A DNA stretch of 42,351 nt from the sequence record NC_025430.1; one strand, written 5' to 3'. The notes under the pieces are model-generated. The model did no database searches. It saw only the letters and a list, made by a program, of their open reading frames with translations, and was not told the origin of the DNA. This stretch comes from Escherichia phage vB_EcoM-ep3. A program made the translations under genes and the position numbers. Positions 5,217 through 34,658 of this stretch are shown here, one piece after another (positions within the stretch are counted from its first letter, which is position 1; every line of letters starts with the position of its first letter).

Positions 5217-5320
5217 TAGAGTAATTAATAGGTATAACCGATTGGCGATATTTACCAAAGGAAATGTATAGTTATTTCACCGGCACACAGGTGCCCAACA
5301 ACAAAAGAGGAAACACCCAA

Positions 5321-5989
5321 ATGGCACGTTTAACCGCTGCAATCCGTGATGGCATCATTGCCAACGCAATCAAAACCAAAGACTTTGCAGGCCGTGACAT
5401 GGCTATTGTTCAGAAGCGCGCTGATTTTGCTGAACGTCTGCGCAAGTATGCGCTTGCACAATATGGCCTTACTGATGCGCGCCTTATTGAAATTAAAAAG
5501 CAGATTGAAGAACTGCAAAACGAAGTTAAGCACGAAGGAGCAAGGTTCGTTCGAATTACTTTTGACTCAACTAACCGTGCTTGGGATGTGAACCTGGCAG
5601 GACAGGCGCGCAGGCTTTATCTTGATGGTACTTGTTCAGGGGAAAGCGTAAAACCGCTTTATAGTGATTCACGCGTAGAATACAGCGACGATAAAATTAC
5701 TCCACATTTCCATGAATCTGATTTCACAGTGCGCGATCCTAAATGGCGCGAAGAACTGGACGCCATTGACCTGGAAGCGGCGCAACTGCGTGAAGAATAC
5801 AACACGCTTAAATCAACACTGGCAGCGACAATTTCAGGATTCACGACGGTGGAAAAACTTCTGGAAGCCTGGCCAGACGCGAAAGAACTGATTCCAGAAA
5901 CAACGCCGATTGCTAAACATCCAGGAACAGGCATTGCGCTGTCGGTAGCTGAACTTAACGCGCTGTGTGGAATTCCTACCGGAAAATAA
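5321..5989 (+). CDS. hypothetical protein
   Basis: ORF trimmed to ATG 5321 (MARLTAAIRD) with AAGAGG 10 nt upstream; coding-like composition, coiled-coil-like central region; no family recognised. Confidence 0.55.
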   Translation: MARLTAAIRDGIIANAIKTKDFAGRDMAIVQKRADFAERLRKYALAQYGLTDARLIEIKKQIEELQNEVKHEGARFVRITFDSTNRAWDVNLAGQARRLYLDGTCSGESVKPLYSDSRVEYSDDKITPHFHESDFTVRDPKWREELDAIDLEAAQLREEYNTLKSTLAATISGFTTVEKLLEAWPDAKELIPETTPIAKHPGTGIALSVAELNALCGIPTGK

Positions 5990-10567: not shown

Positions 10568-11545
10568 ATGGGTAGCATTGTGAATAAATACGAATTGCAT
10601 TTAGGTGATTGCCTGGAAGTTATGAAGTCTATTCCAGCCGGTAGCGTTGATTTGGTTCTGTGTGATCCGCCGTATGGCACCGCTGGCGGAATGGGAAAGG
10701 GTGAAGAACGCTATTCACGAATTGCGAACGCTGAATGGGATAACGCTATTTCTCCGCAGGCCATTTTTGAAGAATGCAACCGCGTTTTGCGAACTAACGG
10801 CGCTCTTATTCTGTTCAGCCAGGAACCTTACACCAGCAAGTTAATCACAGCGGCGCATGGAAATCTGCCTTTCAGTTATCGACTAATGTGGCTGAAAGAC
10901 CATTTCTCTAACTCGCTGTTGGTAAATAAAGCGCCTGTTTCATACTTTGAAGATTTAGTGGTGTTCTTCAAGAAATATGACACGCTGGCACAGCATCCGC
11001 TAAGGGATTATGCCAAAAAAATCATGGAATACATTGGCAGAAATATAAAGCAGATAAACACTGATTTAGGTCACAGGCGCGCGGAACACTTTTTTTATGT
11101 TGAATCAACGCAGTTCGGGCTGTGTACTGAAAAGACATACAACCAGATTATTGCGCACTATGGGCTTAGTGTGTGTGACTGGCTTATGACTTATGCTGAA
11201 ATGTTAGAAATTGACCGCAGGTTTGCCCGCAGGTTTAACCTGGCGGATGGTGCAAAATACAAATCTAACGTTCTTCAGTACAAAAAGGATTATACCGGCC
11301 TTCACCCAACACAGAAGCCGGTAGCACTGCTGGCTGACATCATCAGGACATATTCAAACCCTGGCGAAACGGTTCTAGATTTCACTATGGGGAGCGGGTC
11401 AACAGGAGTCGCCTGCATCAATGAAGGCCGTAACTTCATAGGAATTGAACTTGATGAAACCTATTTCCAGACAGCGCAGGGGCGCATAATGGAAGCAGCA
11501 GCCGCAAACGATAACCAGGCAAGTAGCAATTCTGTTGTAGCATAA
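10568..11545 (+). CDS. DNA methyltransferase (N6-adenine/N4-cytosine, beta-class)
   Basis: 325 aa; motif IV LCDPPYGT precedes motif I LDFTMGSGSTG (beta-class order); AT-rich relative to neighbours; no cognate restriction enzyme gene nearby. Confidence 0.85.
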   Translation: MGSIVNKYELHLGDCLEVMKSIPAGSVDLVLCDPPYGTAGGMGKGEERYSRIANAEWDNAISPQAIFEECNRVLRTNGALILFSQEPYTSKLITAAHGNLPFSYRLMWLKDHFSNSLLVNKAPVSYFEDLVVFFKKYDTLAQHPLRDYAKKIMEYIGRNIKQINTDLGHRRAEHFFYVESTQFGLCTEKTYNQIIAHYGLSVCDWLMTYAEMLEIDRRFARRFNLADGAKYKSNVLQYKKDYTGLHPTQKPVALLADIIRTYSNPGETVLDFTMGSGSTGVACINEGRNFIGIELDETYFQTAQGRIMEAAAANDNQASSNSVVA

Positions 11546-23959: not shown

Positions 23960-24528
23960 TGAACGCCGATACTCACATTGATTTAGAAGTGCTGCACAGC
24001 GCCATTGTGGCCGACATCAAAGCAGCATTCCCGCAACTGGTCACCGTGGAGTTTTACCAGGATGACCCGGAAGCGCGCAAAACGCTGCCAATTCCCGCCT
24101 GCCTGCTGACCATCAGCGAACTGGAGGCAGACAACGAGATTGACCCCGGCACGGAACAGTTGGCCGTTGTGGCGACGTTTGAGGCGCATTTCATCATTAA
24201 CAGCATCAGGACACCCCGCGCCGCCCTGGCCATCAGGACGCTGGCCGCTGCCTTCATGGCCTGGCTGCGCAAGCGCCGCTGGACCAACCCGGCAGACCCC
24301 GCCAGGAAGCTGCCCACAGGGACAGCCAACGTGGTTGGCGGCTTCCCTGACGACTTCACCCCGGAACTGGACAAATTCGAGGTGTGGCGCGTGGAGTGGC
24401 AGCAAGTCATCCACCTGGGCGAAAGCGTGTGGAACGATGAAGGCATAACCCCATCAGAGGTTTATTTCAGTTGGTTGCCTGAAATTGGCACCGGCAACGA
24501 AGAAGATTACGAGAAGGTGAACCCATGA
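23950..24528 (+). CDS. putative tail-completion/virion protein
   Basis: 192 aa; overlaps both neighbours; assigned by position. Confidence 0.4.
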   Translation: MGIMNADTHIDLEVLHSAIVADIKAAFPQLVTVEFYQDDPEARKTLPIPACLLTISELEADNEIDPGTEQLAVVATFEAHFIINSIRTPRAALAIRTLAAAFMAWLRKRRWTNPADPARKLPTGTANVVGGFPDDFTPELDKFEVWRVEWQQVIHLGESVWNDEGITPSEVYFSWLPEIGTGNEEDYEKVNP

Positions 24529-25178
24529 TCGCAGAAGTTAGCGAACTGAACCGCCAGCTAAACAACGTTGTGCGCATCGGCACCATCAAACAACTGGACC
24601 TGGCCAACGCGCGTGCTAAAGTTTCCGTTGCTGGCTGCACCACTGACTGGCTGCCCTGGGGAACCAACCGTGCCGGGAAGCGCCGCGACTGGTCACCGCC
24701 TGTCATCGGCGAACAGGTAGTTTTGTTTGCGCCTTACGGCGACTTAGGCCAGGCAGTCATTGGGCCGTCAATCTTCCAGGATGACCACGCGGCACCAGCG
24801 GCAAGCGCGGACCAGGAAACAACCGTTTACCCTGACGGCACAACGGTGGACTACAACAGCGCAAGCAACACGCTGACCATCACCGTGGCTGGTGCAGGTA
24901 ATGTCATCATTAACTGCAAACAGGCCAACGTGAACACTGAAACGGCCACCGTGACGGCATCAACAAGCGTCACTCTGGACACGCCTGACACGTTTTGCAC
25001 CGGCAACCTGACCGTGGCCAAAAGTTTCCAGATGGGAAGCGAAGGCGGAACGGCTACGATGACTGGTAACGTGGCGATTGAAGGCGGAAGCCTGACACAC
25101 AACGGCAAAAACATTGGCAGCAACCATGCTCACAGCGGCGTGCAGTCTGGTGGCAGCAACACCGGCGCACCGGTGTGA
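24525..25178 (+). CDS. baseplate assembly protein V (spike, P2 gpV-like)
   Basis: 217 aa; N-terminal VRIGTIKQLDLANARAKV and central CTTDWLPW...VIGEQVVLF match my recollection of P2 gpV; C-terminal Gly-rich HSG..GG.TG tail. Confidence 0.88.
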   Translation: MIAEVSELNRQLNNVVRIGTIKQLDLANARAKVSVAGCTTDWLPWGTNRAGKRRDWSPPVIGEQVVLFAPYGDLGQAVIGPSIFQDDHAAPAASADQETTVYPDGTTVDYNSASNTLTITVAGAGNVIINCKQANVNTETATVTASTSVTLDTPDTFCTGNLTVAKSFQMGSEGGTATMTGNVAIEGGSLTHNGKNIGSNHAHSGVQSGGSNTGAPV

Positions 25179-25181
25179 CCT

Positions 25182-25198
25182 GACAAACCCCAAGAAGA
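25182..25198 (+). repeat. 17-bp motif GACAAACCCCAAGAAGA, copy 3
   Basis: Exact copy in the intergenic gap 3 nt after the gpV stop and in gpV's frame; followed by hairpin ATGCGGGC-ATCATT-GCCCGCAT (25211-25232) that holds the gpW start; 49 bp upstream of gpW. Confidence 0.9.
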
Positions 25199-25231
25199 TA
25201 AACCATCACCCATGCGGGCATCATTGCCCGC

Positions 25232-25570
25232 ATGAAAGGAACAAACGCGGCCACAGGCGCGCCGCTGGATGGTTTAGACCATCTGCGCCAATCCATAAGA
25301 GACATACTCACGACGCCAATTGGCACGCGAGTGATGCGCCGCGACTACGGCAGCCGGTTGCCCTACCTGGTTGATGCACCGATGAACCGCAGCACGCTGC
25401 TGGACCTGTACGCAGCGACTGCGGAAGCACTGGAAGCCTGGGAACCACGCATCAGCGTGCAGCAGGTGACAGCAACATCAGCAGAACCAGGACGCGTGGA
25501 ATTGTCCATTACCGGCGAATACCTGCCAGACGGCAAACAAATAACAATTGACGGCATAGTGGTGACATAA
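25232..25570 (+). CDS. baseplate assembly protein W (P2 gpW-like)
   Basis: 112 aa; LDHLRQSIRDILTTPIGTRVMRRDYGS closely follows the P2 gpW pattern as I recall it. Confidence 0.88.
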   Translation: MKGTNAATGAPLDGLDHLRQSIRDILTTPIGTRVMRRDYGSRLPYLVDAPMNRSTLLDLYAATAEALEAWEPRISVQQVTATSAEPGRVELSITGEYLPDGKQITIDGIVVT

Positions 25571-26473
25571 ATGGCGGGTGCCTTCACAGTTGTAAACTTA
25601 TCTCAATTACCAGCGCCAAACGTTGTTGTGCCGCTGGACTTTGAAACGATTCTGGCGGCCATGATCGCCGATTTGCAGGATCGTGACCCCACATTCACCG
25701 CATTGGTGGAATCTGACCCCGCTTATAAAATCCTGGAGGTCTGCGCTTACCGGGAGTTACTGCTGCGTCAGCGAGTTAATGAAGCGGCCAAAGCAGTTAT
25801 GCTGGCTTACGCGTCTGGTGCAGATCTTGACCAGTTAGGCGCGAACGTTGGTGTTAAGCGCCAGGTGATTACGCCTGCTGATGACACAACTGTGCCGCCA
25901 ACACCTGCAGAAATGGAATCAGATGAAGATTTCCGCGCGCGTATTCAGTTGTCACCGGAAGGCTACACAACAGCGGGTTCAGAAGGCAGTTATGTGTTCC
26001 ACGGATTGGGTGCTGACGCTGACGTGAAAGACATCCAGGCCATAAGCCCGGAGCCAGGAAAAGTCACCGTTTACGTGCTGTCACGCACCGGCGACGGCAC
26101 CGCACCTGCTGAAACCATTACTGCGGTTGCCAACACCCTAAACGGCGAAACCATCAGGCCAATGACCGATGAAGTCACAGTGCTGTCAGCAAACATCGTG
26201 AGTTACACCATTAATGCTGAACTAACGCTGTTCCCTGGCCCTGACTCCACTGTGGTTCTCCAGTCTGCCATTGATGCCGTAACAGCGTTTGCAGAATCTC
26301 AGCGCCGCATTGGCTATGATGTCACGCTGTCTGGTCTGTATCACGCATTGCATCAGCCTGGCGTGCAGAACGTCAACCTGACCAGCCCAACAGCATCACT
26401 GGTGCTTGGCGATGGTCAGGCCAGCTATTGCACAGCAATCAATGTAACCGTGGCGGGTGATACTGATGTCTGA
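25571..26473 (+). CDS. baseplate assembly protein J (P2 gpJ-like)
   Basis: 300 aa; position after W and before I; baseplate-J-like composition. Confidence 0.85.
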   Translation: MAGAFTVVNLSQLPAPNVVVPLDFETILAAMIADLQDRDPTFTALVESDPAYKILEVCAYRELLLRQRVNEAAKAVMLAYASGADLDQLGANVGVKRQVITPADDTTVPPTPAEMESDEDFRARIQLSPEGYTTAGSEGSYVFHGLGADADVKDIQAISPEPGKVTVYVLSRTGDGTAPAETITAVANTLNGETIRPMTDEVTVLSANIVSYTINAELTLFPGPDSTVVLQSAIDAVTAFAESQRRIGYDVTLSGLYHALHQPGVQNVNLTSPTASLVLGDGQASYCTAINVTVAGDTDV

Positions 26474-27059
26474 CTTATTGCCATATAATTCAACAGAACA
26501 GGAACGCGCACTGGCTGAAACAATAGCCAGGATTAGTGACGTTCCGGTTGTCGTGCGTGAAGTCTGGAACCCTGACACATGCCCATCAAGCGTTCTGCCC
26601 TGGCTGGCTTGGGCGTTCAGCGTTGACGATTGGGATACTACCTGGTCAGACGAGCAGAAACGCAAGGTAATTAAAGAGTCGGTTTATTCGCAGCGCATAA
26701 AAGGCACTATCGGGGCTGTTACGCGTCAGCTTGTTGCTTTGGGCTACCAGATTCAGATCCTTGAGTGGTTTAAACAAAGCCCGATTGGCCAGCCGTACAC
26801 ATTTGATGTTTACATTACTGCTAATCAATATCCGTTAACTCAAGAAGATTTTAAAAAAATACTACAAGTGATTGACACTAACAAAAACCTGCGTTCGCAC
26901 CTGGATGAAACGCAGTTGATTGTTAAGTCAGAAAGTAAAACGACTGCTGCCATTGTCTGTGGCACAGGAAATGAAATTAGTCTGACGAACTACACCAGAT
27001 TTGTTGGTGCTTTGAATGACTATGTTATGGTGCAACCAAATATATCTATAGGTGCTTAA
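26466..27059 (+). CDS. tail protein I (P2 gpI-like)
   Basis: Trimmed to ATG 26466 (MSDLLPYN); VREVWNPDTCPSSVLPWLAWAFSVDDWD nearly matches the P2 gpI motif as I recall it. Confidence 0.88.
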   Translation: MSDLLPYNSTEQERALAETIARISDVPVVVREVWNPDTCPSSVLPWLAWAFSVDDWDTTWSDEQKRKVIKESVYSQRIKGTIGAVTRQLVALGYQIQILEWFKQSPIGQPYTFDVYITANQYPLTQEDFKKILQVIDTNKNLRSHLDETQLIVKSESKTTAAIVCGTGNEISLTNYTRFVGALNDYVMVQPNISIGA

Positions 27060-29303
27060 GTGGAACTGAAAACATACTTCGCCCAAGACAGAAACGGAAA
27101 CCTTATTCCATCTGCTACAGTGTCAATTTTTTTGTCTGGCACATCAACCTTAGCCACAGGATTAAAGACCGTTAGCGGCGCTAATCTTACCAATCCTTTC
27201 ACCGCAGGTTCTGACGGTAAAATACAGTTTTACGCTCCAGACGGAATTTATGACATGCAGGTATCACTAGGCAGCGTTGACGGAGTTAAAGTTACGTTTC
27301 AATGTATCGATGTTCAACAGCAACTTAGCGAAGCAAGCAGCGCCGCAGATCGCGCAGAGGCTGCGGCTGAATCCATAGAATCGCAGTCCGCTAACATCGA
27401 ATCAAACAGCCGTGAACAATGGCGCAGATCGCTGGCAGATGCAGGAATAACGCTTGTTAACGGTAGCTTTGAGGCGGGGGCGACAGTCAGTAACGCTTCT
27501 GAAGCTGTCTGGCATATTGCTGGTGGTCAGTGCTACACCTGGGGCGGAGTGATGCCGAAAGTAGTAACAGAAGGTTCAACACCTTCCGAAACAGGTGGCG
27601 TTTCCCCTGGAGCCTGGACTAGCGTTGGTAATAAATCCTTTAGCCAAATCCTGGCATCAAACAAGGGAATGAATCTAATCGGTGACGTTGATTCTGTAGC
27701 TCAGTTAGCATCTGTTTCTGGCGCATCTGTTGGCGATAAGATACTTGTCAGATCATACATCGCCGGTTCTAATAAAGGTGGTGGCACATTTGTTGCAGTT
27801 GAAAACACTGAAACGCCTGATGGCGTGGTAGTATTTGACGGCGTAGGTGTTAAATGGCGGAGACTTTTCTTTGCTGGTGAGGTAAATGTATTTGACGCCG
27901 GATATACGGGAAGCGGCGACATTGCTGTTTACATCAATAAAGTGAATTCCGCAGGATACGATTGTTTTATTCCATGTTCCGGTGCGTTTTCTTCCGCAAT
28001 AGAAATTGATTTCAGCAAAGGAAGTGTAAGAGGCGCAAACAAATGCACACTTACAGAAATTGAAGGAATTCCAGGTGATTATGCGTTGAAGCTTTTCAAC
28101 TCAAACACCGATTATGCTGACCGAGATTCAATTAACGCAAACGCCATATTGGATGGGGTCGCATTTCAGTTTTCTGGAACAAAAAAAATTGCGCTTGGCG
28201 GAGCGGGAACGGGTGAACTATCTGAATTGCGGATAAGTAACTTTGGTTTCATATCTTCTGCTGGATTAGAGTTTCTTGACAACTCTTACCGGATTATTTT
28301 CGATAAAGGCGCTATTTCACGCAGCTTTAATGACACACTCATATTTAATTCACCTGCGAACTCAGGAGAAGTGATTAACTTCAATCATTGCTGGATGGTA
28401 GACAATGGCGGGCCATTAAAATTCAAAAATGGGCAGTTTATATTTAATGGTTGCTCAATGCCTGCCGGGAAGAAGGCAGGATATTTTGACCCAAACATAA
28501 TATTGGAGGACAACGCAACAGTTGTTTACGCAAATGGCAACATTGAATTTCAACCAGGTCAAAGTTTTGTTGCATTTGTGGTTGGCGGCAGTTCCAGATT
28601 GAGTATTAAAGATTCAACGCTGCTAACTCCATCTGGATATTCAGCTATACCAATCGTTGCAAATGATGATGCGGTCGTCTCGCTAACAAACTGTTCGCTT
28701 CCTCTATATGAGCAAACAGAGATTGCCGCTGGTGCTGCTGCGCGTCAAATTATTGGTGGGAACAGTAAGAAAGTAATGTCTTATGGTTGTTATCCCAGGG
28801 CTGGTTTTATAACAGCAAATTGGGATAAAGGTAACATTGTTAGTGCTTACATAAACTCATTGTCGAATGGCAGTGGACAATTTTTAAACTATTCAAACTG
28901 GAGTTTAATGCAAACCGGAAGCGGTGTTGTTACGGCAGGTACTGATACTGACGTACCAAATACAATCATGTTTTCAAGATCGCTATACGTAACTGTCCCT
29001 TCCGTTGGTGCGACAGCAGATTTCTACCAAGACTGCCTTGACTGTTCACCTGGCCGCTATTTTCAACTTGGGTTTTGGGCAAAGAACGCTGTGACATCAC
29101 TGGCATCAATTGAATTCTTTGATAAAGAGGGCAACAGCGTTCAAGGGAAAATACCTTTTAATATACCTTCTGTGAATGCTTGGGGATTCTATGCGCTCGT
29201 AGACATTGTTCCGCCTGGTGCAAGTAAAGCAAGGGTTAACTTTGCAGTTTCTGGTGAAGTAGGTACACTGCATATTCATAACGCTATTTATGGCTTGATT
29301 TAA
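27060..29303 (+). CDS. tailspike-like receptor-binding protein (possible depolymerase)
   Basis: 747 aa; GTG start; markedly AT-rich; Gly/Ser/Asn/Thr-rich repetitive composition suggestive of beta-helix tailspikes; inserted between gpI and the gpH-like fibre. Confidence 0.6.
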   Translation: MELKTYFAQDRNGNLIPSATVSIFLSGTSTLATGLKTVSGANLTNPFTAGSDGKIQFYAPDGIYDMQVSLGSVDGVKVTFQCIDVQQQLSEASSAADRAEAAAESIESQSANIESNSREQWRRSLADAGITLVNGSFEAGATVSNASEAVWHIAGGQCYTWGGVMPKVVTEGSTPSETGGVSPGAWTSVGNKSFSQILASNKGMNLIGDVDSVAQLASVSGASVGDKILVRSYIAGSNKGGGTFVAVENTETPDGVVVFDGVGVKWRRLFFAGEVNVFDAGYTGSGDIAVYINKVNSAGYDCFIPCSGAFSSAIEIDFSKGSVRGANKCTLTEIEGIPGDYALKLFNSNTDYADRDSINANAILDGVAFQFSGTKKIALGGAGTGELSELRISNFGFISSAGLEFLDNSYRIIFDKGAISRSFNDTLIFNSPANSGEVINFNHCWMVDNGGPLKFKNGQFIFNGCSMPAGKKAGYFDPNIILEDNATVVYANGNIEFQPGQSFVAFVVGGSSRLSIKDSTLLTPSGYSAIPIVANDDAVVSLTNCSLPLYEQTEIAAGAAARQIIGGNSKKVMSYGCYPRAGFITANWDKGNIVSAYINSLSNGSGQFLNYSNWSLMQTGSGVVTAGTDTDVPNTIMFSRSLYVTVPSVGATADFYQDCLDCSPGRYFQLGFWAKNAVTSLASIEFFDKEGNSVQGKIPFNIPSVNAWGFYALVDIVPPGASKARVNFAVSGEVGTLHIHNAIYGLI

Positions 29304-29310
29304 CAAACAA

Positions 29311-29326
29311 CCCCACTTCGGTGGGG
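29311..29326 (+). terminator. weak terminator-like hairpin
   Basis: CCCCAC-TTCG-GTGGGG, 8 nt after the tailspike stop; followed by AT-rich sequence rather than a clean T-run. Confidence 0.35.
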
Positions 29327-29356
29327 TAGCAAATTTTAAAATTGAGGCCAAACACA

Positions 29357-30694
29357 ATGCCATTTCTTACAATTCATACTAACTATGGTCTGCAAAAGCT
29401 TGCGCAGGCTGAATCAACAGGAACGCAAATCCGGTTGACGCATATGGCAGTTGGCGACGGCAACGGAAATGCTGCGCCGCCTAATCCAAATCAGACGCAG
29501 TTGGTGCGTGAACGTTTCCGCGCAACCATCAACCGCGTTTATCAGGATGCAAATAACCCGCTGCGCTTCACTGCTGAATTGGTTATCCCGGCCAGCGTTG
29601 GTGGTTTTACTATGCGTGAGGTTGGTGTTTTTGACGCTGATGGTTCTCTGTTTGCTGTTGGCGATCTTCCATCTACTTACAAGCCGGTTGATACAGAAGG
29701 TGCCTACTCTGACACGGTTGTGCGGCTTGACTTCATGGTAAGCAACGCCAGCACTATCACCCTACAAGTTGACCCAAATGTTGTGGTTGTCACACAGCAG
29801 TGGATTTCTAACAACGTGACAGCAGGAACCATCATCCCTGGTGGCACAACCGGGCAGGTTCTTGCAAAGCAGTCAAACGCTGACGGTGACGTCCATTGGG
29901 TTGACCCTACACAAGCAAACGTTGTGGTTGATACCATCACCGAAAAACAAACATTGGCAGCCAACCAGACTGTAGTGATGCTGACAACAACCATAACACG
30001 CGGACTGGCGGTGTATATCGAAGGCATCAGGCTGCCGCAAGGTTCTGGTGTTGATGAGTGGCAGCCTGATGCAACTGACTCGTCGAAATTTACACTTGGG
30101 AAGCCTTACCCAGATGGGTCGATTTTGCAGGCTGTGAACAATGAACCAGCAGGAAGCGCACCTGCTCCACTGGAAAGAAGTAAAAACCTTTCAGATGTTG
30201 CAAGTAAATCCGAGTCACGGAGCAACCTTGAAGTTTACAGCAAAACGGAAACTGACCAAAAGATGCCGACAGGTGGAATTGTTTATTTTCCACGCTCTAC
30301 GGCACCGACAGGATGGTTGAAAGCCAATGGGGCTGCGATCAGTAGAACGGCTTATGCAAATCTTTTTTCTGTAATAGGAACAATGTTTGGCAATGGTGAC
30401 GGTGTTAACACGTTCAATTTGCCAGATCTGCGCGGAGAATTCATCAGAGGATATGATGACGGTAGAGGTGTAGACGCTTCACGGTCACTAGGTAGCTATC
30501 AGGCCGATGAAATAAAAACCCACTATCACAGATTGGGGAGTGAATTTGTAGCAAACGGAGCCGAAAACCTTATTGCTGACGCCTGGGACCAGGGCACTAG
30601 CGGCAATTATCCAGAAGGAATTGGCACTGGATACACAGGCGGTACAGAAACCAGACCGCGAAACATCGCTCTACTGGCGTGCATCAAATTTTGA
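29357..30694 (+). CDS. tail fibre protein (P2 gpH-like N-terminus, tail-collar C-terminal domain)
   Basis: Trimmed to ATG 29357 (MPFLTIHTNYG); N-terminus HMAVGDGNGN...AELVIPASVGGFTMREVGVFD follows the P2 H N-terminal domain; C-terminus carries the tail-collar motif NTFNLPDLRGEFIRG. Confidence 0.85.
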   Translation: MPFLTIHTNYGLQKLAQAESTGTQIRLTHMAVGDGNGNAAPPNPNQTQLVRERFRATINRVYQDANNPLRFTAELVIPASVGGFTMREVGVFDADGSLFAVGDLPSTYKPVDTEGAYSDTVVRLDFMVSNASTITLQVDPNVVVVTQQWISNNVTAGTIIPGGTTGQVLAKQSNADGDVHWVDPTQANVVVDTITEKQTLAANQTVVMLTTTITRGLAVYIEGIRLPQGSGVDEWQPDATDSSKFTLGKPYPDGSILQAVNNEPAGSAPAPLERSKNLSDVASKSESRSNLEVYSKTETDQKMPTGGIVYFPRSTAPTGWLKANGAAISRTAYANLFSVIGTMFGNGDGVNTFNLPDLRGEFIRGYDDGRGVDASRSLGSYQADEIKTHYHRLGSEFVANGAENLIADAWDQGTSGNYPEGIGTGYTGGTETRPRNIALLACIKF

Positions 30695-30702
30695 GGCGAA
30701 TC

Positions 30703-31008
30703 ATGAAGACAAAACCCGTTTATCAATATGACGTCGCTGGCCTTTTTGTTGGCCAGACAGATGCTGATGAATCACCTCTTGAACCTGGTGTTTTTCTAAT
30801 TCCTGCACGCTGCGTAGAGGTGGCACCCCCTGAATTTTCAGGTGACCAATGGCCACGCTGGAACGGCGCAAAGTGGGAACTGATTAGCGTATCGCCAGCT
30901 AACGATAACCAACCGGCAAGCCCGGTTGATAAACTGCGAGAATTCCTGAACGCAAACCCTGACGTGGCCGCGCTGATTGGCGCAACGAATGAGGCAACCA
31001 ATGTATGA
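30703..31008 (+). CDS. putative tail fibre assembly chaperone
   Basis: 101 aa; GAGG RBS; VEVAPPEFSGDQWPRWNGAKWEL resembles the N-terminal domain pattern of Tfa-type chaperones; directly follows the fibre gene. Confidence 0.5.
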   Translation: MKTKPVYQYDVAGLFVGQTDADESPLEPGVFLIPARCVEVAPPEFSGDQWPRWNGAKWELISVSPANDNQPASPVDKLREFLNANPDVAALIGATNEATNV

Positions 31009-31367
31009 GCGAAGTCTTAAGGGGCATCACTAACAAAAACCTTGCAGCGCAAGGATACCAGGAATTACCTGGCGGCATGATTATTCAGTGGGGTAGTTTC
31101 ACCAGCACCGTTACATCTGGTGCAGGCACAACCGATACACGTATGTACCAGGGCACGCAGAGTGTCACGTTTCCAAAACCGTTCCCTACGGCTGTGGTAA
31201 GCATTCAGGCTACGCCAAGAGACAACGAAAACATTATTCTTGAATATGCCAATATCAGTGGTCGGACGCTAACCACATTTTCAAGCATTCTTGGCGGCGT
31301 CCAGAACGAAGGAACGGTGCCAGGAACCACAACACTAACCGTTGACTGGTTCGCTATCGGTTATTGA
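31005..31367 (+). CDS. hypothetical tail-fibre-associated protein
   Basis: 120 aa; ATGA coupling; Thr/Gly-rich; followed by a strong terminator. Confidence 0.45.
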   Translation: MSEVLRGITNKNLAAQGYQELPGGMIIQWGSFTSTVTSGAGTTDTRMYQGTQSVTFPKPFPTAVVSIQATPRDNENIILEYANISGRTLTTFSSILGGVQNEGTVPGTTTLTVDWFAIGY

Positions 31368-31379
31368 TTTGTCGCCTTT

Positions 31380-31401
31380 GCCCGCTTCGGCGGGCTTTTT
31401 T
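31380..31401 (+). terminator. intrinsic terminator
   Basis: GCCCGC-TTCG-GCGGGC hairpin followed by TTTTTT. Confidence 0.8.
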
Positions 31402-31404
31402 ACG

Positions 31405-31421
31405 GACAAACCCCAAGAAGA
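31405..31421 (+). repeat. 17-bp motif GACAAACCCCAAGAAGA, copy 4
   Basis: Exact copy 4 nt after the terminator T-run, intergenic; 89 bp upstream of the tail sheath start; followed by inverted repeat ACTGTG..CACAGT (31456-31469). Confidence 0.9.
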
Positions 31422-31493
31422 AGCCACGCACGGTTCCTGCGACCATCACACTGCGAATTTTCACTGTGTGCACAGTTAATAGGAAACCGAATA

Positions 31494-32921
31494 ATGGCAG
31501 GTACTGATTTTTTACATGGCGTGGAGGTGCTGGAAATTGATTCCGGTTCACGCGTCATTCAAACCGTTAAATCAAGCGTCATCGGTATTGTTGGCACCGC
31601 GCCAAATGCTGACCCTGACGCATTCCCGCTAAACACCCCAACCCTGATTGCAGGCAGCCAGCGCGAAGCGGCCAAACTGGACATGCTTGGCACCGGTGAA
31701 GGCACCCTTCCCAAAGCACTGGATGCCATCCTGGACCAGATCGGCGCTGTGGTCATCGTTGTGCGTGTTGAAGAAGGCGAAAACGAAGCCGCAACGCTGG
31801 CCAACATCATGGGTGGAGTTAACGCATCAACCGGCAAATATGAAGGCGTTCACGCACTGCTTGGCGCTGAATCCGTTGTGGGCTACTCGCCGCGCATTCT
31901 GTGCGTTCCCGGCTTCACGCATACCCGCGTTCAGGATGGCGTCACCGCTATCACCATCGGCAACGGCGGCAGCGGTTACACCGAAGCGCCTACGGTCACC
32001 CTGGCTGGTGGCGGCGGTGGTTCTGGCGCAACTGCGCAAGCAACCGTGGTTGGTGGCGTCATCACCAAAATCATCGTCACCAACGCTGGCATGGGTTACA
32101 CCAAAGCGCCAACCGTCACCATCACTGGCGGCAACGGCACCGGCGCAACTGCAACCGCATCCGTTGGTATCGCAGCCAATGCCGTGGTTTCTGAACTGCT
32201 TGGCATCGCCAACCGCCTGCGTGCTGTCATCATCGCTGACGGTCCAAACACCAACGACGCTGACGCCATCGCCTACCGCAAAGACTTTGGCAGCAAGCGC
32301 GTTTATGTGGTTGACCCAAAAGTGCTGGTGCTTGACGAGGATGGCACCACGATTACTGACTGGGCATCGCCGCGCGTGGCTGGACTGATTGCCCGCATCG
32401 ACAACGAGCGCGGTTTCTGGTGGTCACCATCAAACCAGGAAATCTATGGCATCCAGGGCACGGCCAGAACCATTGATTTCACCCTGGGTGACACGTCCAG
32501 CCGTGCAAACCTGCTGAACGAAAACGAAGTCACCACCATCATTCGCCAGGACGGTTTCCGCCTGTGGGGCAACCGCACCACTTCCAGCGATCCGAAATGG
32601 GCGTTTCTGTGCGTTGTTCGCACGGCTGACATCATCAATGACAGCCTGTTGCGTGCACACCTGTGGGCCGTAGACCGTGGCATCACCAAACAATACGTCA
32701 ATGACGTGATTGAAGGCGTGAACGCGTACCTGCGCAACCTGGTGAGCCTGGGCGCAATTCTTGGCGGCACGTGTTGGGCTGACCCTGACTTAAATACTGC
32801 TGACCAAATCGCTGACGGTAAGGTATACTTTGATTTTGATTTCACGCCTGTTTATCCGGCTGAACACATTATCTTCCGCAGCCAATTGACCAACGATTAT
32901 ATTAGTGAGGTATTCGAATAA
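31494..32921 (+). CDS. tail sheath protein (P2 FI-like)
   Basis: 475 aa; N-terminus [20 protein letters not shown] and C-terminal [14 protein letters not shown]...CWADPD follow the P2 FI pattern; carries an internal Gly-rich tandem-repeat insertion. Confidence 0.9.
31941..32170 (+). repeat. internal tandem repeat within the sheath gene
   Basis: Two about 105-bp units encoding [25 protein letters not shown] and [24 protein letters not shown]; similarity visible at the nucleotide level. Confidence 0.6.
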
Positions 32922-33974: not shown

Positions 33975-34658
33975 ATGAAGAAAGTAACCAAGAGTGAGGC
34001 GATAGAGCAAGGGCTTAATTATTACTTTACTGGTAAGCCATGTAAGCATGGGCACGTCAGCGAAAGGTATATAAAAGGCGGAGCTTGCGTGGCTTGCCAG
34101 AGAATTAAAAGCAAAGAGTTCAGTAAAAACAATGTTGAATCAGAAAGGATTAGGAAGCATCTAGATTATCTTGCGCACAAGGAAGAAAGGAACGAGAGAA
34201 ATAAATCTTGGCAAAAAAGAAACAGGGCAAAAGTCTCAGAGTATGTTGCAAAATGGAGGAAAAAAAACAGGGAGAAGGTGAACGAAATGGCCGCTGAGTT
34301 AAGGCGCAAAAACCCAGAAAAGCAAAAAGAGGCTGACAGGAGATGGAGAGCAAAAAACAAACACAAGGTGGCCAAGAAAGACGGTCTTAAAAGGGCAGCA
34401 AAACTGGCAAGAATTCCAGTTTGGTTTGGTGAATTTGATGATTTTGTGATTCAGGAAGCGCACACGCTGGCAGCGTTAAGAGGTGATGAAACCGGAATAC
34501 CCTGGCACGTTGACCACATGTTGCCAATGAGGGGGAGAAAAATTTCCGGGTTACACTGCGCGCATAATATCCAGGTGATTCCGGCAGCCATGAATGTGAG
34601 AAAAATCAACAAAATGGTTTTGACCAACCCACTAGAGTGGTTACGCGATGGCGTCTAA
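33975..34658 (+). CDS. HNH endonuclease (free-standing, homing-type)
   Basis: 227 aa; N-terminal Cys/His cluster (CKHGH...CVACQ), C-terminal HNH-like motif WHVDHMLP...LHCAHNIQVIPAAMNVRK; lysine-rich middle; AT-rich; inserted between chaperone and tape-measure. Confidence 0.65.
   Translation: MKKVTKSEAIEQGLNYYFTGKPCKHGHVSERYIKGGACVACQRIKSKEFSKNNVESERIRKHLDYLAHKEERNERNKSWQKRNRAKVSEYVAKWRKKNREKVNEMAAELRRKNPEKQKEADRRWRAKNKHKVAKKDGLKRAAKLARIPVWFGEFDDFVIQEAHTLAALRGDETGIPWHVDHMLPMRGRKISGLHCAHNIQVIPAAMNVRKINKMVLTNPLEWLRDGV

What the first reader, a model, noticed from the sequence alone, without database searches (positions are those of the whole stretch)
27060..29303. AT-rich 747-aa tailspike-like gene inserted between tail protein I and the H-like fibre
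In P2 the fibre gene H directly follows I. Here a large GTG-initiated gene of much lower GC content intervenes, while the true H-like fibre and a fibre chaperone follow. This suggests a horizontally acquired second receptor-binding protein, possibly a polysaccharide depolymerase. The low-GC tract begins in the 3' half of gene I (about 26700), consistent with recombination within I.
Basis: partly seen in the sequence, partly recalled or inferred. Interest (0 to 1): 0.52.

Follow-up and report, generated by a model that had tools for sequence, protein, structure and literature searches.

The report
Known O78 tailspike depolymerase (Dpo42)

Summary
A GTG-initiated 747-aa ORF (27060..29303, +) lies between a P2 gpI homologue and an H-like fibre gene. 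It has GC 0.439 against 0.5335 for the genome, and the lowest GC3 (0.356) of 44 ORFs.

The window is almost certainly the whole genome of Escherichia phage vB_EcoM-ep3. It is 99.6% identical over the region compared (24500-31500) to vB_EcoM_ECOO78 (Jilinvirus). The gene differs by 3 nt and 1 aa from ECOO78 ORF42, "Dpo42", a depolymerase that was expressed and assayed in 2017.

Residues 131-747 are 59% identical to the crystallised CBA120 tailspike TSP4 (5W6H), which confers infection of E. coli O78. Most phages carrying this receptor-binding domain infect O78 hosts. I therefore infer the substrate is the O78 O-antigen, not a K capsule as published.

The gene is not a one-off insertion:
- Five relatives carry a spike in the same slot, with the same N-terminal anchor.
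- Only residues ~190-747 are the exchanged cassette; the junction is near 27630.
- The low-GC 3' half of gene I is shared by spike-bearing relatives and differs in two spike-less ones.

Verdict: already known, low interest. The minor additions are the O78 link, the genus-level cassette architecture, and a ~350-nt tract recently exchanged with a P22-like prophage.

The parts
26457..27059 (+). P2 gpI-type baseplate protein. The start is either GTG 26457 or the ATG at 26466 that the ECOO78 annotation uses. From ~26650 to the end, the 3' half is low-GC and is the 'spike-associated' form of the protein's C-terminal half.
   Evidence: Pfam Tail_P2_I E 6e-50 and TIGR01634. Residues 101-197 are 52-84% identical in five spike-bearing relatives but 24-25% in two spike-less ones. 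GC of the 3' half is 0.38-0.44 in spike-bearers against 0.49-0.50 in spike-less phages.
27060..29303 (+). Tailspike / polysaccharide depolymerase gene; orthologue of Dpo42 (vB_EcoM_ECOO78 ORF42, ARM70447.1).
   Evidence: 3 nt and 1 aa (L609S) different from ECOO78 ORF42. phrog_4217 E 4e-276. PDB 5W6H E 7e-243. Dpo42 experiments are in PMC5539073.
27060..27311 (+). Codons 1-84: N-terminal anchor, a small beta-sandwich. It is conserved across Jilinvirus spikes and present at the N-terminus of spikes in many other phages.
27312..27440 (+). Codons 85-127: single long alpha-helix, presumably a trimeric coiled-coil stalk.
   Evidence: Helix 85-127 appears in both AF2 models. Trimerisation is inferred, not shown.
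27450..27629 (+). Codons 131-190: Tail_spike_N (TD) domain. This is the last part shared at DNA level with Arya and ECO1230-10.
   Evidence: Pfam PF18668 E 2.7e-15. blastn similarity ends at 27548 (ECO1230-10) and 27625 (Arya). The domain aligns to the second head repeat of TSP4 (query residue 117 matches residue 418 of the PhaxI TSP4 homologue).
27630..29300 (+). Codons 191-747: the exchanged receptor-binding / catalytic cassette. It comprises a neck, a small D3' module, a parallel beta-helix, and a C-terminal CBM-like beta-sandwich.
   Evidence: No similarity to genus relatives. 52-75% identical to spikes carrying Kuttervirus, Gamaleyavirus, Kagunavirus, T7-like and P22-like N-termini. Foldseek 5w6h_A E 3.7e-66; the C-terminus hits CBM4 modules. 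GC 0.419.
28545..28890 (+). Tract 98-100% identical in DNA to a P22-like prophage tailspike gene of E. coli, flanked by 60-75% identity. This is a recent intragenic exchange.
   Evidence: Protein sliding identity. DNA sliding identity against L006, GCA_017970385.1.
29310..29327 (+). GC-rich hairpin ACCCCAC-TTCG-GTGGGGT just after the spike stop codon. It marks the 3' edge of the variable cassette.
   Evidence: Present with a compensatory change in Arya and ECO1230-10, -13 to -17 kcal/mol. Similarity to relatives resumes at 29309-29365.
29342..30694 (+). H-like tail fibre (tail-collar type); the real start is probably the ATG at 29357.
   Evidence: Pfam PF12571 E 1e-50 and PF07484 E 2e-23. The ECOO78 annotation starts at the ATG, and a GAGG lies 9 nt upstream.
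30679..31008 (+). Small ORF downstream of the fibre gene; a possible fibre assembly factor.
   Evidence: phrog_1766 E 3e-17. Hits to 'tail fiber assembly' PHROGs are only weak (E 3e-4 to 8e-4). No Pfam or NCBIfam hit.

Best explanation
The gene encodes the tailspike of a small P2-like myovirus (genus Jilinvirus; the window is most likely phage vB_EcoM-ep3). It is the orthologue of the published depolymerase Dpo42.

Proposed mechanism, with each step marked:

1. The gene is translated from a GTG coupled to the stop codon of baseplate gene I, within the late V-W-J-I-spike-H operon. The position and start are shown; the coupling is inferred.
2. The protein trimerises through a long helix (residues 85-127) and the beta-helix. 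This is inferred from trimeric TSP4.
3. A small N-terminal beta-sandwich (residues 1-84) docks the trimer on the baseplate, probably next to the C-terminal half of gpI. That half exists in a spike-associated and a spike-less form. This step is inferred.
4. Residues ~190-747 bind and cleave the host surface polysaccharide. They consist of a neck, a D3' module, a parallel beta-helix and a CBM-like end domain. Degrading activity is shown experimentally for Dpo42. The fold is shown by 59% identity to 5W6H and by the model.
5. The substrate is most likely the O78 O-antigen, in LPS and possibly in an O-antigen capsule. Cleavage would let the virion reach the outer membrane, where the separate H-like fibre acts. 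This step is inferred.

The specificity cassette was acquired by recombination at the end of the conserved Tail_spike_N domain. It is still exchanging segments with prophage spikes.
For: Identity:
- 99.6% DNA identity to vB_EcoM_ECOO78 over 24500-31500.
- The gene is annotated 'tail protein-depolymerase' and differs from it by 1 aa.
- Window length 42,351 and GC 53.35% equal the values printed for vB_EcoM-ep3.

Activity:
- Purified Dpo42 gives dose-dependent, expanding semi-clear spots on E. coli O78-3, and the phage makes halos.

Fold:
- phmmer to 5W6H gives E 7e-243 over residues 131-747.
- In the AF2 model, pLDDT is mostly 70-93 over residues 130-190 and 210-747, with several short segments below 50; mean pLDDT is 71.8.
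- Foldseek top hit is 5w6h_A at E 3.7e-66, followed by Klebsiella K2 and CBA120 TSP2 depolymerases.

O78 link:
- CBA120 TSP4 confers infection of E. coli O78, also when moved into phage S117.
- Phages with this RBD were isolated on O78 hosts: ECOO78, phiHAO78-1, EC1-UPM, AVIO78A, ASO78B, phiWAO78-1, XT18/32/73.

Modularity:
- Spike slot and conserved N-terminus in relatives.
- Breakpoints at 27371-27625 and 29309-29365.
- RBD on six or more different anchors, and the anchor on many different enzymes.
- Anchor fold resembles P22, Sf6 and Pam1 spike docking domains.
- gpI C-terminal half correlates with spike presence.
Against: - The only experimental paper assigns the substrate to capsular polysaccharide. 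That rests on negative staining alone and speculates about PGA.
- Dpo42 acted on 15 of 34 clinical isolates whose serotypes are not given. This is more than one would expect if all had to be O78.
- 59% identity does not guarantee identical specificity.
- No catalytic residues are known for TSP4 or for this protein.
- The docking role of residues 1-84 rests on a common fold that also matches unrelated proteins at equal Z. The gpI correlation contrasts only one spike-less lineage, since HeidiAbel and PT1 are 97-99% identical to each other.
- Trimer formation was not modelled.
Confidence: 0.85

Rival explanations
1. The enzyme is a capsule (K-antigen, colanic acid or PGA) depolymerase, as published for Dpo42. 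The O-antigen plays no part.
For: After Dpo42 treatment the white halo around E. coli E9 disappeared in Maneval negative staining. The enzyme prevented biofilm formation and acted on 15 of 34 isolates, more than the 5 the phage lyses. Structural neighbours after 5W6H are Klebsiella K2 capsule depolymerases.
Against: The chemistry of the substrate was never determined, and a 2020 review lists it as 'unknown'. The closest characterised homologue (59% identity over 615 aa) is specific for O78. The RBD tracks O78 hosts across unrelated phage genera. From my own knowledge: an O-antigen capsule (group 4) made of the same repeat unit would reconcile the staining result with an O-antigen substrate.
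Confidence: 0.2
2. The whole gene is a recent insertion into the I-H junction of this particular phage, with one recombination endpoint inside gene I. This is the literal first reading.
For: The GC drop starts inside gene I at ~26650. Similarity to the spike-less relative HeidiAbel ends at 26685.
Against: Five relatives with different spike specificities have a spike at the same place. They share the low-GC 3' half of gene I, the same GTG start and a 60-88% identical N-terminal ~100 aa. Similarity among them ends only at 27371-27625, inside the spike gene.
Confidence: 0.05
3. The protein is a non-enzymatic adhesin that only binds polysaccharide.
For: No catalytic residues have been identified. 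The C-terminal domain looks like a carbohydrate-binding module.
Against: Purified Dpo42 produces spreading semi-clear zones down to nanogram amounts, and the phage makes growing halos. The PDB entry for the TSP4 homologue (5W6H) is titled its 'enzymatically active domain'. [quoted passage not shown]
Confidence: 0.03

Closest known systems
Dpo42 (ORF42, ARM70447.1) of Escherichia phage vB_EcoM_ECOO78; Guo et al. 2017, PMC5539073
   Same: Same gene in a sister phage: 747 aa, 1 aa different (L609S), same position, same GTG start. Expressed, purified and shown to degrade a surface polysaccharide.
   Different: Essentially nothing. The paper found only <=31% identity to known depolymerases, failed to model the protein, and called the substrate capsule. 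The TSP4 structure and its O78 assignment came later and do not seem to have been connected to Dpo42.
CBA120 tailspike protein 4 (TSP4, orf213; PDB 5W6H), Kuttervirus
   Same: 59% identity over residues 131-747. That span covers one head repeat, the neck, D3', the beta-helix D3 and the CBM-like D4. TSP4 is specific for E. coli O78.
   Different: TSP4 has a 335-residue N-terminus (anchor AD plus gp10-like XD1-3) that builds a four-spike branched complex. Here that part is replaced by a 130-residue beta-sandwich plus helix with no XD domains. There is only one Tail_spike_N repeat instead of two.
O78 RBP subtype spread by horizontal transfer across phage genera (Virol J 2023, PMC10408124)
   Same: Genus-conserved N-terminal anchor plus a serogroup-specific C-terminal RBD. 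The same RBD occurs in Kutter-, Gamaleya-, Kaguna- and Lederbergvirus-type spikes.
   Different: That study lists eight genera and does not include Jilinvirus, ECOO78 or Dpo42. Here the carrier is a P2-like contractile-tail phage that also has a separate fibre.
P22 / Sf6 tailspike N-terminal particle-binding domain
   Different: No sequence similarity (no PF09008 hit). The fold is common and scores equally against unrelated proteins. The partner here would be a myovirus baseplate, not a podovirus tail hub.

Membership tests
Beta-helix tailspike depolymerase, CBA120 TSP4 / O78 RBP subtype | Sequence homology over the whole enzymatically active domain of TSP4 | tested here: met
   phmmer E 6.6e-243, query residues 131-747 against chain residues 84-697 of 5W6H. 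59.5% identity by tblastn to CBA120 orf213.
Beta-helix tailspike depolymerase, CBA120 TSP4 / O78 RBP subtype | Right-handed parallel beta-helix body with a C-terminal beta-sandwich | tested here: met
   In the AF2 model, pLDDT is mostly 70-93 over residues 210-747, with several short segments below 50. Foldseek 5w6h_A E 3.7e-66, then other tailspike depolymerases; the C-terminal ~150 aa match CBM4 modules.
Beta-helix tailspike depolymerase, CBA120 TSP4 / O78 RBP subtype | Homotrimer | not testable with these tools
   Only monomer prediction is available. Trimerisation is inferred from trimeric TSP4 and the long helix at residues 85-127.
Beta-helix tailspike depolymerase, CBA120 TSP4 / O78 RBP subtype | Polysaccharide-degrading activity | not testable with these tools
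   Reported experimentally for Dpo42, which differs by 1 aa: expanding semi-clear spots and loss of the stained capsule.
Beta-helix tailspike depolymerase, CBA120 TSP4 / O78 RBP subtype | Specificity for the E. coli O78 O-antigen | not testable with these tools
   Inferred from the O78 host of ECOO78, the O78 hosts of most phages with this RBD and the O78 specificity of TSP4. The published assignment is 'capsule'.
Beta-helix tailspike depolymerase, CBA120 TSP4 / O78 RBP subtype | Identified catalytic carboxylate pair | tested here: inconclusive
   17 acidic residues are invariant in 14 homologues. The most conserved block is residues 401-550 (E404, D407, D415, E437, D448 and others). No catalytic residues were found in the literature searched for TSP4.
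Ackermannviridae branched tailspike complex (T4 gp10-like XD domains) | N-terminal anchor AD and XD1-XD3 domains that bind partner spikes | tested here: not met
   Homology to TSP4 starts only after its N-terminal 335 residues. Residues 1-130 have no Pfam or PDB sequence match and fold as one beta-sandwich plus a helix. The genome has a single spike gene.
P2-type tail/baseplate module (V-W-J-I-H-G) | Homologues of V, W, J, I and the H N-terminus in this order | tested here: met
   Pfam hits: Phage_base_V / Phage_spike, GPW_gp25, Baseplate_J, Tail_P2_I, Phage_tail_fib + Collar.
P2-type tail/baseplate module (V-W-J-I-H-G) | Fibre gene H directly follows I (P2 gene order, from established knowledge) | tested here: not met
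   The spike gene lies between them here and in five relatives. The I-then-fibre order is kept in HeidiAbel and PT1.
P22-type tailspike head-binding domain (PF09008) | Sequence match to PF09008 at the N-terminus | tested here: not met

The most novel reading that the evidence does not exclude
Two linked readings remain open.

1. Dpo42 and this spike are O78 O-antigen endoglycosidases rather than capsule depolymerases. That would make Jilinvirus a ninth phage genus carrying the O78 receptor-binding cassette.

2. In Jilinvirus-like phages the I-H junction is a universal 'plug-in' slot. A P22-like N-terminal docking sandwich pairs with a dedicated form of the gpI C-terminal half. It carries dozens of unrelated surface-glycan enzymes: glycosidases, sialidases, SGNH esterases, phosphodiesterases.
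Probability: 0.6. Interest if true: 0.3.

Novelty: already known. Interest (0 to 1): 0.15.

Why it matters
The gene itself is already published, annotated and biochemically handled, so it adds nothing new as a discovery.

The modest value is corrective and practical:

- Linking Dpo42 to the O78-specific TSP4 family gives a testable substrate. That matters for anyone using Dpo42 or these phages against avian-pathogenic or ETEC O78 strains.
- The breakpoints mapped here are the end of the Tail_spike_N domain at ~27630 and the hairpin after the stop codon at 29310-29327. They show where a receptor-binding cassette could be swapped in this small, easily engineered myovirus.

Tried and rejected
- **Catalytic residues.** I looked for them in the TSP4 literature. 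The primary paper (Plattner 2019) is not held. Conservation alone gives 17 invariant acidic residues and cannot single out a pair.
- **Prophage copy in complete E. coli genomes.** I searched for the prophage copy of the near-identical tract. Only one match was found, at 80% identity. The donor-like gene had to be fetched through the protein look-up instead, and its host's O type could not be checked.
- **First structure prediction.** With 26 sequences it left residues 1-100 below pLDDT 50. A deeper N-terminal alignment fixed this.
- **Sequence searches of residues 1-130.** Searches against Pfam and PDB gave only chance-level hits. NCBIfam gave nothing useful for the spike.
- **Viral-contig scan with the anchor alignment.** It returned only 9 loci, too few for architecture statistics. 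It did show that the anchor also occurs without a gpI gene upstream, so the gpI pairing cannot be general.
- **Rejected readings.** I considered and rejected membership in the Ackermannviridae branched complex (no XD domains). I also rejected a whole-gene insertion specific to this phage.
Full report
**Observation.**
The ORF is real: 27060..29303, + strand, GTG start, 747 aa. Pfam places it in a P2-like baseplate/tail block:
- V: 24525..25178
- W: 25232..25570
- J: 25571..26473
- I: 26457..27059
- the ORF
- an H-like fibre with Phage_tail_fib and Collar domains: 29342..30694
- two small fibre-associated ORFs
- sheath and tube genes

The start is sound. The TAA of gene I abuts the GTG, and AGGTG lies 7 nt upstream. 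Three close relatives also use GTG. More distant ones use ATG or TTG at the same conserved MELKTYFAQD.

The composition claim also holds:
- Gene GC is 0.439 against 0.5335 for the window.
- GC3 is 0.356, the lowest of 44 ORFs.
- Only 1.4% of equally long windows are as GC-poor.
- The drop begins inside gene I at about 26650-26700.
- The gene is not uniformly AT-rich: codons 106-190 have GC 0.533.

**What it is.**
The region 24500-31500 is 99.6% identical to Escherichia phage vB_EcoM_ECOO78 (Jilinvirus, host E. coli O78). There the gene is ORF42, annotated 'tail protein-depolymerase'. The two genes differ by 3 nt and one residue, L609S.

The window's length (42,351) and GC content (53.35%) equal the values that the ECOO78 paper prints for the sister phage vB_EcoM-ep3. 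The window is therefore most likely that complete genome.

ORF42 is Dpo42 (Guo et al. 2017, PMC5539073). What the paper reports:
- The phage makes growing halos.
- The purified 78.6-kDa protein gives dose-dependent, expanding semi-clear spots on E. coli O78-3.
- It acts on 15 of 34 isolates, whereas the phage lyses 5.
- It prevents but does not remove biofilm.
- It abolishes the negative-stain 'capsule'.

**Fold.**
Residues 131-747 match the crystal structure of the 'enzymatically active domain' of CBA120 tailspike 4 (5W6H) at E 7e-243 and about 59% identity.

An AlphaFold model built on 26 query-anchored sequences has mean pLDDT 71.8. It is confident over residues 130-190 and most of 210-747. 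Its best Foldseek match is 5w6h_A (E 3.7e-66). Next come Klebsiella K2 depolymerases and CBA120 TSP2. The last ~150 residues also match CBM4-type carbohydrate-binding sandwiches. This agrees with published descriptions of the TSP2 and TSP4 D4 domain.

**Substrate.**
The 2017 paper called the substrate capsular polysaccharide from staining alone and speculated about PGA. [quoted passage not shown] The same table lists TSP4 against E. coli O78 LPS.

TSP4 confers infection of O78, also after transfer into phage S117. Many of the phages that carry this receptor-binding domain were isolated on O78 strains: ECOO78, phiHAO78-1, EC1-UPM, AVIO78A, ASO78B, phiWAO78-1, XT18/32/73.

I found no paper that connects Dpo42 with TSP4. 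The study defining the O78 RBP subtype lists eight genera and does not include Jilinvirus.

I therefore infer, at about 70%, that the substrate is the O78 O-antigen. From my own knowledge, an O-antigen (group 4) capsule made of the same repeat unit would reconcile this with the staining result. The main counter-evidence is the 15/34 activity range on isolates that were not serotyped.

**Architecture and origin.**
The gene is not a private insertion. Arya (813 aa), ECO1230-10 (825 aa), Alux-21 (741 aa) and KA2-1 (623 aa) all have a spike gene directly after gene I. HeidiAbel and PT1 go from I straight to a fibre.

DNA similarity to the spike-bearing relatives runs through gene I into the spike gene. 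It ends at 27371 (Alux-21), 27548 (ECO1230-10) and 27625 (Arya). It resumes at 29309-29365.

At protein level, residues 1-100 are highly conserved across the four spikes. Residues 100-190 are conserved in Arya and ECO1230-10. Everything after ~190 is unrelated.

Two opposite sets of homologues confirm the modularity:
- The C-terminal ~550 residues occur behind Kuttervirus, Gamaleyavirus, Kagunavirus, T7-like and P22-type N-termini.
- The N-terminal ~190 residues occur on ~40-kb contigs in front of many other enzymes. These include pectate-lyase-like beta-helices, BNR sialidases, SGNH esterases, glycerophosphodiesterases, NAGPA-like and SASA domains.

A conserved hairpin lies directly after the stop codon (29310-29327). 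It is present with a compensatory change in Arya and ECO1230-10 and marks the 3' edge of the cassette.

**The junction in gene I.**
The low-GC 3' half of gene I is shared by the spike-bearing relatives, at GC 0.38-0.44. It is not seen in HeidiAbel and PT1, at 0.49-0.50.

gpI residues 101-197 are 52-84% identical among spike bearers but only 24-25% identical to the spike-less pair. That pair is nevertheless 76% identical in gpJ and ~60% identical in gpI residues 1-100.

But it separates spike-bearing from spike-less baseplates. It predates the acquisition of this particular O78 cassette, whose junction is near 27630. The correlation rests on a single spike-less lineage and is only suggestive.

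**The anchor.**
Residues 1-109 recur in 1264 representative protein clusters, almost always at residue 1 of proteins 600-1000 aa long.

With a 35-sequence alignment the first 132 residues model at pLDDT 94.8. They form a beta-sandwich (residues 2-82) followed by one long helix (85-127).

- Pan3 tail spike: Foldseek E 3.5e-4

The fold is common, so this only makes a docking role plausible. The anchor also occurs in loci without a gpI gene upstream, so it is not tied exclusively to gpI.

There are no gp10-like XD domains and only one Tail_spike_N repeat. The branched Ackermannviridae complex is therefore not the model here.

**Ongoing exchange.**
Window 28545-28890 is 98-100% identical in DNA to the tailspike gene of a P22-like prophage in E. 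coli GCA_017970385.1. The flanking parts of the same gene are 60-75% identical. This is a recent gene-conversion tract inside the beta-helix and D4 region.

**Verdict.**

The feature is already known, from GenBank annotation and a dedicated experimental paper on a protein that differs by one residue. It also has a solved homologue.

Interest is low. The residual value lies in:
- the unmade link between Dpo42 and the O78-specific TSP4 family
- the mapped cassette boundaries
- the evidence that the I-H junction is a genus-wide plug-in site for surface-glycan enzymes

Noticed in passing
window 28545-28890: A ~350-nt tract inside the spike gene is 98-100% identical to a P22-like prophage tailspike gene of E. 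coli (GCA_017970385.1), while the rest of that gene is 60-75% identical. This points to recent intragenic recombination between a lytic myovirus and a prophage.
   Followed up: yes
window 33975-34658: A 227-aa ORF with the lowest GC of the genome (0.437) sits between the tail-assembly gene and the tape-measure gene. ECOO78 and other relatives match only its flanks, so it is a ~750-nt insertion specific to this genome. It has no Pfam hit, but the C-terminus (HVDHMLP...HNIQVIP...N) reads like an HNH nuclease motif, suggesting a homing endonuclease.
   Followed up: partly
whole window (1-42351): Length 42,351 and GC 53.35% equal the published figures for Escherichia phage vB_EcoM-ep3 (KM360178). 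That record did not appear among the hits in the phage collection searched.
   Followed up: partly
window 29342-29357: The mechanical ORF for the H-like fibre starts at TTG 29342. The ECOO78 annotation and a GAGG 9 nt upstream favour the ATG at 29357.
   Followed up: partly
window 30441-30644 (3' end of the fibre gene): Similarity of the fibre gene to Arya and Alux-21 breaks off over the last ~80 codons and resumes in the next ORF. The fibre tip is therefore a second variable specificity region.
   Followed up: no
window 31494-32921 (sheath), residues ~145-230: The sheath protein carries an extra segment that matches Ig-like decoration domains of many unrelated virion proteins in PHROGs, outside the two Pfam sheath domains.
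   Followed up: no
proteins P0032-P0251 (relatives of residues 1-190): The N-terminal anchor occurs in 1264 representative clusters. It is fused to very different enzymes: pectate-lyase-like, BNR sialidase, SGNH/GDSL esterase, GDPD, NAGPA-like, SASA, pectinesterase, EEP nuclease/phosphatase-like, and S74 chaperone.
   Followed up: partly
window 5264-5989 and 10568-11545: Two further low-GC ORFs encode an Nmad5 (nucleotide-modification-associated) domain protein and an N6/N4 DNA methylase.
   Followed up: no
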